Below, piece after piece: positions 22,951 through 23,207 of a DNA stretch of 64,000 nt. The stretch spans positions 91,574,001 through 91,638,000 of the forward strand of contig OZ024747.1 of assembly GCA_964016885.1 (NCBI GenBank), in the 5' to 3' direction. The stretch's first letter is position 1. Every line of letters begins with the position of its first letter. Below the pieces are notes generated by a model. It was not told the DNA's origin. It made no database searches and saw only the letters and a program-made list of their open reading frames with translations. A program made the translations under genes and the position numbers. This DNA is from Eledone cirrhosa (lineage: Eukaryota).

Positions 22951-23207
22951 TATAAAGAAAAAGAGATGAAATCGAAAATGCAACTGGAGTCTTATTTTTT
23001 TTTTAAATATATATATTTATTTGGTTCCTTTACCGGTTTCGCAGAAGAACTGCGAAACCGGTAAAGGAACCAAATAAATATATATATTTTAAAAAAAAAT
23101 AAGACTCCAGTTGCATTTTCGATTTCATCTCTTTTTCTTTATACTTTCACTCGTGTAGGACACCTCGGTTATTTTTCATTTTGTAAAAAAAAAAACCTCA
23201 CTTTCTA
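22951..23207 (+). mobile_element. TA-embedded fold-back element centred on HHR stem II
   Basis: 94-bp arms 22951-23044 / 23050-23143; gcag aagaa ctgc-GAAAC-cg-GTA; unique tail to 23207. Confidence 0.85.

What the first reader, a model, noticed from the sequence alone, without database searches (positions are those of the whole stretch)
22951..23207. Palindromic insertion whose symmetry axis is a hammerhead stem II loop
Seen: 94-bp arms meet at gcag-aagaa-ctgc, followed directly by GAAAC-cg-GTA, the 3' half of a minimal HHR with palindromic stem III accggt. Where CUGANGA should be sits the inverted copy of the downstream sequence, and only the right arm continues into a unique tail. Inference: nascent cDNA snapped back on the ribozyme hairpin and self-primed, which predicts exactly this asymmetry.
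Basis: partly seen in the sequence, partly recalled or inferred. Interest (0 to 1): 0.85.

Follow-up and report, generated by a model that had tools for sequence, protein, structure and literature searches.

The report
Inverted Penelope-retroelement end with hammerhead remnant
This palindrome is one of thousands of short, head-to-head insertions of the end of a Penelope-like retrotransposon; its axis sits on a ribozyme hairpin only as a rare junction type, while most copies instead stop at what is likely the element's transcription start.

Summary
The palindrome is real: 94-nt arms, one mismatch, 5-nt loop, (TA)n on both sides. It is a 5'-truncated, head-to-head insertion of a high-copy Penelope-like element (PLE). 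Long copies encode RT plus C-terminal GIY-YIG with a Neptune-type Cys linker. An inverted pLTR with a tail on one arm, and self-priming as its cause, are already in print.

Intact copies read TTGAAAA, not CUGANGA (99 of 100 listed); this is the known U3-A8 hammerhead variant. The stem II axis is not special: 5 genome-wide matches, against 8 for the ACCGGT axis and 3 for TGCA. In 2 of the 4 full copies the tail is on the other arm, so snap-back of one tail-primed cDNA does not predict the asymmetry.

Instead 48 of 92 tailed arms begin in one 15-nt zone 30 nt below a TATA box, likely the RNA 5' end; a second family behaves alike. Both outer ends are fixed, fitting two internal RT start sites. 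A modest excess of ends at the predicted ribozyme cut (about 2-fold; p about 0.08 without discovery rows) is only a lead. New member of a known kind.

The parts
22837..22954 (.). Left (TA)n target microsatellite; overlaps the arm end by TATA microhomology
22951..23044 (-). Inverted tail-less arm: family positions -156..-63 (0 = tail end), ending at the fixed short end
   Evidence: (L034)
23041..23209 (+). Direct, tailed arm: family positions -165..0 of the PLE pLTR region; no substitutions against natural copy L106, one 3-nt A-run gap
23041..23053 (+). Hammerhead stem II hairpin GCAG-AAGAA-CTGC; its 4-bp GCAG/CTGC self-complementarity is the junction microhomology
23054..23063 (+). 3' half of the hammerhead core: GAAA, palindromic ACCGGT (dimer-type stem III), GUA triplet; predicted cut between 23063 and 23064 (family -143/-142)
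   Evidence: descriptor from PMC4209133; the cut is inferred
23064..23067 (+). Stem I 3' strand AAGG; its partner (C/A)CTT and the TTGAAAA core are absent from this copy, so this copy cannot form the ribozyme
23144..23209 (+). PLE tail between the two fixed 3' ends (63 nt in L106, 66 here); in tandem units it runs on 26 nt to the ORF ATG
23208..23241 (.). Right (TA)n target microsatellite

Best explanation
This is a short head-to-head insertion of the pLTR end of a high-copy, endonuclease-bearing Penelope-like retroelement into (TA)n, likely made from two cDNAs primed on opposite target strands at two fixed internal RNA sites 63 nt apart, and likely joined at the 4-bp GCAG/CTGC microhomology, which happens to be hammerhead stem II. 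Shown: family identity, the two fixed outer ends, (TA)n flanks, the U3-A8 core in intact copies, the breakpoint map, and the tail on either arm. Inferred: the GIY-YIG domain nicks both strands; RT starts internally at the tail end (0) and at the short end (-63); most cDNAs run off the RNA 5' end at about -214, which gives the common 215-nt solos and near-perfect palindromes; rarer early stops are joined at whatever short self-complementary word is near, by a brief snap-back of either cDNA or by direct annealing. The ribozyme fold is not needed for the junction. Family identity about 0.95; this junction mechanism about 0.55.
For: Family: tandem units of 4,871 and about 5,000 bp; RVT_1 plus GIY-YIG in one frame; C-x4-C-x2-C linker. 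Fixed ends: the partner arm ends at -63 in 31 of 47 rows, and 83 of 92 tail ends run into a TA run. In 2 of 2 tandem units the tail end lies 26 nt before the ORF ATG, so it is internal to a sense RNA, as with the two internal RT starts of PMC11167929. 5' ends: 48 of 92 tailed arms start at -217..-203; 652 arms start exactly at -214 genome-wide; TATAAAA begins at -244, 30 nt upstream. In a second family, 27 of 30 arms start within -3..+8 of an Inr-like A with TATTTAT at -31 (the anchor only admits starts up to +8). Either arm can be longer: tail-less longer in 8, tailed longer in 12, within 7 nt in 26 of 46 insertions (L095 counted once). In 2 of 23 pairs the arms carry different subfamily dinucleotides. 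Other microhomology axes are as common as stem II.
Against: Arm starts are coupled (both at peak 23, tail only 9, partner only 3, neither 12; Fisher p=0.0014; L095 is in two rows), which two independent cDNAs would not give unless they share one RNA end or one snaps back. Arms mostly share a template (20 of 23 concordant against about 12 discordant expected at random; 3.2% arm-arm difference against 4.8-5.3% between copies). Solo short-end arms were rare or absent in my loci (by eye). Short inverted stubs (L064, L072, L073, L076, L100) look like snap-back. A later central deletion explains either-arm asymmetry equally well and was not excluded. No RNA data, so the transcription start rests on motif spacing only.
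Confidence: 0.6

Rival explanations
1. Later central deletion: the insertion began as the common longer palindrome (both arms from about -214) and lost its centre by slippage or cruciform repair between the two GCAG direct repeats that the palindrome creates.
For: Gives exactly this junction (inference from the sequence), the 2:2 orientation, either-arm asymmetry and coupled starts. Off-peak pairs are slightly more diverged: 3.7-4.0% against 3.0%.
Against: That age difference is not significant (p=0.28). This copy looks young: one arm-arm mismatch and no substitutions against L106. Many near-perfect peak palindromes persist, including diverged ones. It does not explain the 2 of 23 subfamily-discordant pairs without gene conversion.
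Confidence: 0.2
2. One reading: a single tail-primed cDNA stalls at the ribozyme, snaps back on stem II, copies itself and jumps to the left (TA)n flank.
For: Compatible with this copy and L035: the loop lies on the tailed arm and there is 4-bp microhomology. Arms usually share a template. Short inverted stubs exist.
Against: L031 and L032 have the same junction with the loop on the tail-less arm. The tail-less arm is longer by up to 204 nt in 8 of 46 insertions. There is no stem II peak (1 of 92). It gives no reason for a fixed stop at -63 when a better TA microhomology lies at -128..-119.
Confidence: 0.12
3. Self-priming on an antisense transcript, as proposed for head-to-head PLE palindromes in PMC3846280.
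For: Published model for the same anatomy; TATA-like words read both ways in AT-rich pLTRs.
Against: The same length rule (copied arm not longer than template arm) is broken in 8 of 46 insertions. The main 5' boundary fits a sense TATA and start. Sense-template internal initiation is shown in vitro for another PLE.
Confidence: 0.06
4. Assembly fold-back artefact.
For: The window's own locus was not checked with reads.
Against: The arms differ at one base, end at a family-fixed site and sit between two (TA)n flanks. The same junction occurs at 3 other full loci on other contigs with other flanks. Short-read contigs of public runs show the same loose (TA)n ends at both fixed ends and an opposite-strand joint (these may be the source sample).
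Confidence: 0.02

Closest known systems
EN+ Penelope-like elements, Neptune type (PMC8557442, passages read; PMC3846280, passages and Discussion read)
   Same: RT with C-terminal GIY-YIG, CX2-5CxxC linker, partial tandems and pLTR, inverted 5'-truncated copy, tail on one end only, (TA)n targets, hammerhead in the pLTR, TATA and Inr in the pLTR.
   Different: Tail is 63 nt (30-40 bp in print); long 3' region of about 1.4-1.5 kb with internal subrepeats; tail end lies before the ATG rather than inside the ORF. Clade not tested by a tree.
Minimal PLE hammerheads with the U3-A8 core (PMC4209133, parts 1-2 of 4 read)
   Same: U3-A8 covariant core, G10.1-C11.1 pair, palindromic 15.2-16.2, short stem I; dual motifs on opposite strands 100-700 bp apart were reported there.
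   Different: Stem II is only 4 bp and there is no extra base between positions 9 and 10.1; activity untested.
Poseidon PAc of Anolis (PMC11167929, parts 1-2 of 4 read)
   Same: Two insertion ends that bound a tail and lie inside the RNA, downstream of the hammerhead; AT-rich targets.
   Different: Different clade; there the starts lie in the ORF, and no RNA-seq reads were found ending at the ribozyme cut. Here genomic ends show a weak excess there.
L1 twin priming (recalled, no paper read)
   Same: Two primers from opposite target strands give a 5' inversion joined by microhomology.
   Different: In L1 the second site is variable and the segments barely overlap; here it is fixed and both arms copy the same stretch.

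Membership tests
EN+ Penelope-like element | RT and C-terminal GIY-YIG in one ORF | tested here: met
   L171:4904-6862 hits RVT_1 (5.5e-07) and GIY-YIG (3.7e-06); atlas neighbours have the same domain set. The window copy itself has no ORF; long copies seen were interrupted.
EN+ Penelope-like element | Tandem or partial-tandem units forming pLTRs | tested here: met
   L156/L157 unit 4,871 bp; L171 hammerheads 5,009 bp apart
EN+ Penelope-like element | Inverted 5'-truncated copy with a tail at one end only | tested here: met
   47 of 77 rows with a mapped start have an adjacent inverted partner, 31 ending at -63; tail 63 nt
EN+ Penelope-like element | Hammerhead motif in the pLTR | tested here: met
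   U3-A8 form
EN+ Penelope-like element | Intron in the 5' region, retained on transposition | tested here: inconclusive
   A GT..AG candidate exists; 0 spliced genomic copies; no RNA run
Neptune clade | CX2-5CxxC linker between RT and EN; microsatellite targeting | tested here: met
   C-x4-C-x2-C before the GIY-YIG domain; 83 of 92 tail ends meet a TA run
Neptune clade | RT phylogeny groups with Neptune rather than Nematis | not tested
   No named reference sequences were in hand
Minimal type I hammerhead | Core CUGANGA, or U3-A8 covariant, plus GAAA and NUH | tested here: met
   CUGANGA not met (0 of 100 listed); U3-A8 met (100 of 100 listed). The window copy lacks the 5' core.
Minimal type I hammerhead | Stems I and II, palindromic helix III region | tested here: inconclusive
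   Stem II in all 3 folds; stem I only in L002; z-scores -0.5 to -1.2, not significant. Stem I is 3-4 bp in both subfamilies. No Rfam hit in the window.
Minimal type I hammerhead | Self-cleavage | not testable with these tools
   Only an indirect, weak genomic hint
Non-LTR retrozyme | Non-coding tandem units each with a full hammerhead | tested here: not met
   The family encodes RT-EN and the window copy is a single inverted pair without a full core
MITE / foldback DNA transposon | Fixed terminal inverted repeats at both ends of a constant element | tested here: not met
   Ends are unequal (tail), inner boundaries vary, and the parent is a retroelement

The most novel reading that the evidence does not exclude
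The thousands of short copies are a fossil record of the PLE replication cycle: two cDNAs primed 63 nt apart on opposite target strands run off the RNA 5' end, mostly the capped start 30 nt below a TATA box and, in a minority, the end made by in vivo self-cleavage of the U3-A8 hammerhead. That would be genomic evidence both for twin priming as the source of inverted pLTRs and for a PLE hammerhead actually cutting in the germline.
Probability: 0.3. Interest if true: 0.62.

Novelty: new member of a known kind. Interest (0 to 1): 0.3.

Why it matters
The flagged palindrome itself is an ordinary PLE insertion. The family matters as a test bed. PMC8557442 calls hammerhead function in EN+ PLEs unclear and the origin of tandem/inverted structures unresolved, and PMC11167929 left the steps after RT initiation unvalidated. 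With more than 7,000 young insertions, this family allows single-base mapping of cDNA starts, stops and joins. The pile-up of 5' ends at a TATA-defined start, seen in two families, is a concrete testable consequence of internal RT initiation. I did not see it stated in the passages read (searches; most subscription papers are not in the library).

Tried and rejected
A DNA search of the right arm against the genome returned nothing because its words are too common; exact patterns were used instead. Rfam gathering scan of the window: 0 hits. Earlier findings of this scan: none. Intron idea (donor GU equal to the cleavage triplet): 0 spliced genomic copies, no such joint in contigs, though skipped part of that stretch as repeats; dropped as unsupported. 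No RNA holder listed; contigs cannot show starts or splicing. Cap-templated extra G: G precedes -214 in 45 of 100 listed matches (by eye), but most fit (GA)n flanks, inverted-arm microhomology or local re-priming, and C was excluded by the pattern; not used. Ribozyme-cut hotspot: -142 is the mode in both listings, but neighbours -144, -141 and -140 are nearly as common and TA/GG microhomology blurs them; p=0.02 falls to 0.085 without the 3 discovery rows; kept as a lead only. Age test of the deletion rival was inconclusive. MFE folding did not support or refute the ribozyme. An all-against-all BLAST timed out and was rerun with simple repeats masked. Supplements of the cited papers were not read; they may hold family-level HHR lists that bear on novelty.

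Full report
Observation. The palindrome is as described: arms 22951-23044 and 23050-23143, 94 nt, 5-nt loop, one mismatch, centre GCAG-AAGAA-CTGC followed by GAAAC-CG-GTA, (TA)n on both sides. The window lies in a 3.0-Gb, microsatellite-rich genome; I did not establish the species.

What it belongs to. A 22-mer of the right arm matches 13,570 times and a tail 22-mer 7,332 times. Many matches come as divergent pairs 0.1-3.7 kb apart. Following long copies upstream led to a GIY-YIG reading frame and then to tandem units of 4,871 and about 5,000 bp. One frame holds RVT_1 and GIY-YIG with a C-x4-C-x2-C linker. This is an EN+ Penelope-like element of Neptune type by the linker and (TA)n criteria of PMC8557442 (passages); no tree was built. 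An inverted 5'-truncated copy with a tail on one end is the described PLE anatomy, and self-priming at palindromic junctions was proposed in PMC3846280.

The ribozyme. Uninverted copies read (C/A)CTT-TTGAAAA-GCAG-AAGAA-CTGC-GAAA-CCGG-TA-AAGG. Of 100 listed cores (13,054 matches) 99 are TTGAAAA, 1 is TTGAGAA and none is CTGANGA. This is the U3-A8 covariant reported for PLE minimal hammerheads (PMC4209133). Stem I is 3-4 bp. Folding energies are not better than shuffles, and activity is untested. The window copy lacks the 5' core and stem I 5' strand on both strands, so it cannot form the ribozyme.

Breakpoint map. I used natural copy L106 as ruler (0 = tail end) and 92 tail-anchored arms from 90 loci: the first 92 of the 100 listed places, all on the first 44 Mb of contig 1, out of 7,332. 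Starts: -217..-203, 48; longer, 24; -202..-170, 1; stem II zone -169..-153, 1; -152..-145, 0; -144..-138, 5; shorter, 13. Genome-wide, the window's exact junction has 5 matches: 4 full palindromes and 1 older stub. The ACCGGT axis has 8 sites and the TGCA axis 3 with a longer pattern. Stem II is therefore one of several minor microhomology axes. The main peak lies 30 nt below TATAAAA, and 652 arms start exactly at -214. Contig depth in public runs steps up about 3-4-fold there (possibly the source sample). A second family, the palindrome at 23755-23873 with 16,911 matches, shows 27 of 30 arms starting within -3..+8 of an Inr-like A with TATTTAT at -31. I infer that these are RNA 5' ends.

The asymmetry. 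Outer ends are fixed: 0 for tailed arms, and -63 for 31 of 47 partner rows. In tandem units the tail runs on 26 nt to the ORF ATG, so both ends are internal to the RNA, as for the two RT start sites shown in vitro in PMC11167929. Snap-back of one tail-primed cDNA requires the tail-less arm never to reach further 5'. It does so by 8-204 nt in 8 of 46 insertions, and in 2 of the 4 full copies with the window's junction. In 2 of 23 pairs the arms belong to different subfamilies. Against a pure two-cDNA model: starts are coupled (p=0.0014), 20 of 23 pairs are concordant, and short inverted stubs exist. The best fit is twin priming, usually on the same RNA source, resolved by brief snap-back of either cDNA or by annealing at microhomology. 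A later central deletion between the GCAG repeats would give the same junction and is not excluded (p=0.28 for the age difference).

Does the ribozyme leave any mark? Possibly at its cut, not at stem II. In one search (221 matches; 100 listed, tallied by eye, 13 dropped as internal deletions, duplications or ambiguous) apparent starts were -145: 8, -144: 16, -143: 9, -142: 20, -141: 16, -140: 15, -139: 3. The predicted 3' product starts at -142 (p=0.02; 0.085 without 3 discovery rows). The 7-nt window holds about 2.2 times more ends than an AT-rich control 30 nt upstream after correction (142 matches, about 52 of 100 listed real by eye), and 30 against 9 for the adjacent GC-rich window (by eye). 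Microhomology with (TA)n and with the inverted arm can produce much of this, and some counted rows are internal jumps. It is a lead, roughly even odds.

Verdict. A real feature, and a new member of a known kind. Papers seen: PMC3846280 passages and Discussion; PMC4209133 parts 1-2 of 4; PMC8557442 passages; PMC11167929 parts 1-2 of 4; bioRxiv 10.64898/2026.07.22.740005 part 1 of 5; PMC2377424 and PMC9977147 passages; no supplements. L1 twin priming and TATA-start spacing are recalled knowledge.

Noticed in passing
window 23755-23873 (tail to about 23950): Second high-copy family (16,911 matches) with the same anatomy: two fixed 3' ends, a tail of about 80 nt, and 5' starts piled at an Inr-like site 31 nt below TATTTAT. 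Long copies L247 and L248 show TTGAAAA, a long stem and GAAAC, a possible second U3-A8 hammerhead with the start inside its stem II loop. No ORF linked.
   Followed up: partly
window 23240-23450 and about 53020-53150: Third family (4,575 matches): inverted pair with the tailed arm on the left; often in tandem arrays of about 500 bp elsewhere; holds CTGATGA but no matching stem II and GAAA was found.
   Followed up: partly
window 53170-53430: Fourth palindrome: 94-nt arms, 13-nt loop, tail of about 60 nt on the right, between (TA)n runs.
   Followed up: no
window 21045-21153 and 21822-21930: 109-nt inverted pair, 87% complementary, 668 nt apart, enclosing a 66-nt direct repeat; a similar sequence lies upstream in L010.
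   Followed up: no
family positions -215..-208 (L106): The presumed start CAGATGTG is a near-palindrome; junctions there often carry short re-primed or inverted pieces, suggesting RT slippage at the RNA end.
   Followed up: partly
L218, L215, L211: Arms that stop at about -142 and continue with sequence from further downstream in the element (ORF start or -120), as if RT jumped templates at that point.
   Followed up: no
L081 and L117, between the ORF stop and the pLTR: The 1.4-1.5-kb 3' region holds subrepeats of about 330 bp in variable number and CA-rich tracts.
   Followed up: no
window 54200-64000: Long degenerate TATG/TCTC-rich tandem array with strong AT skew.
   Followed up: no
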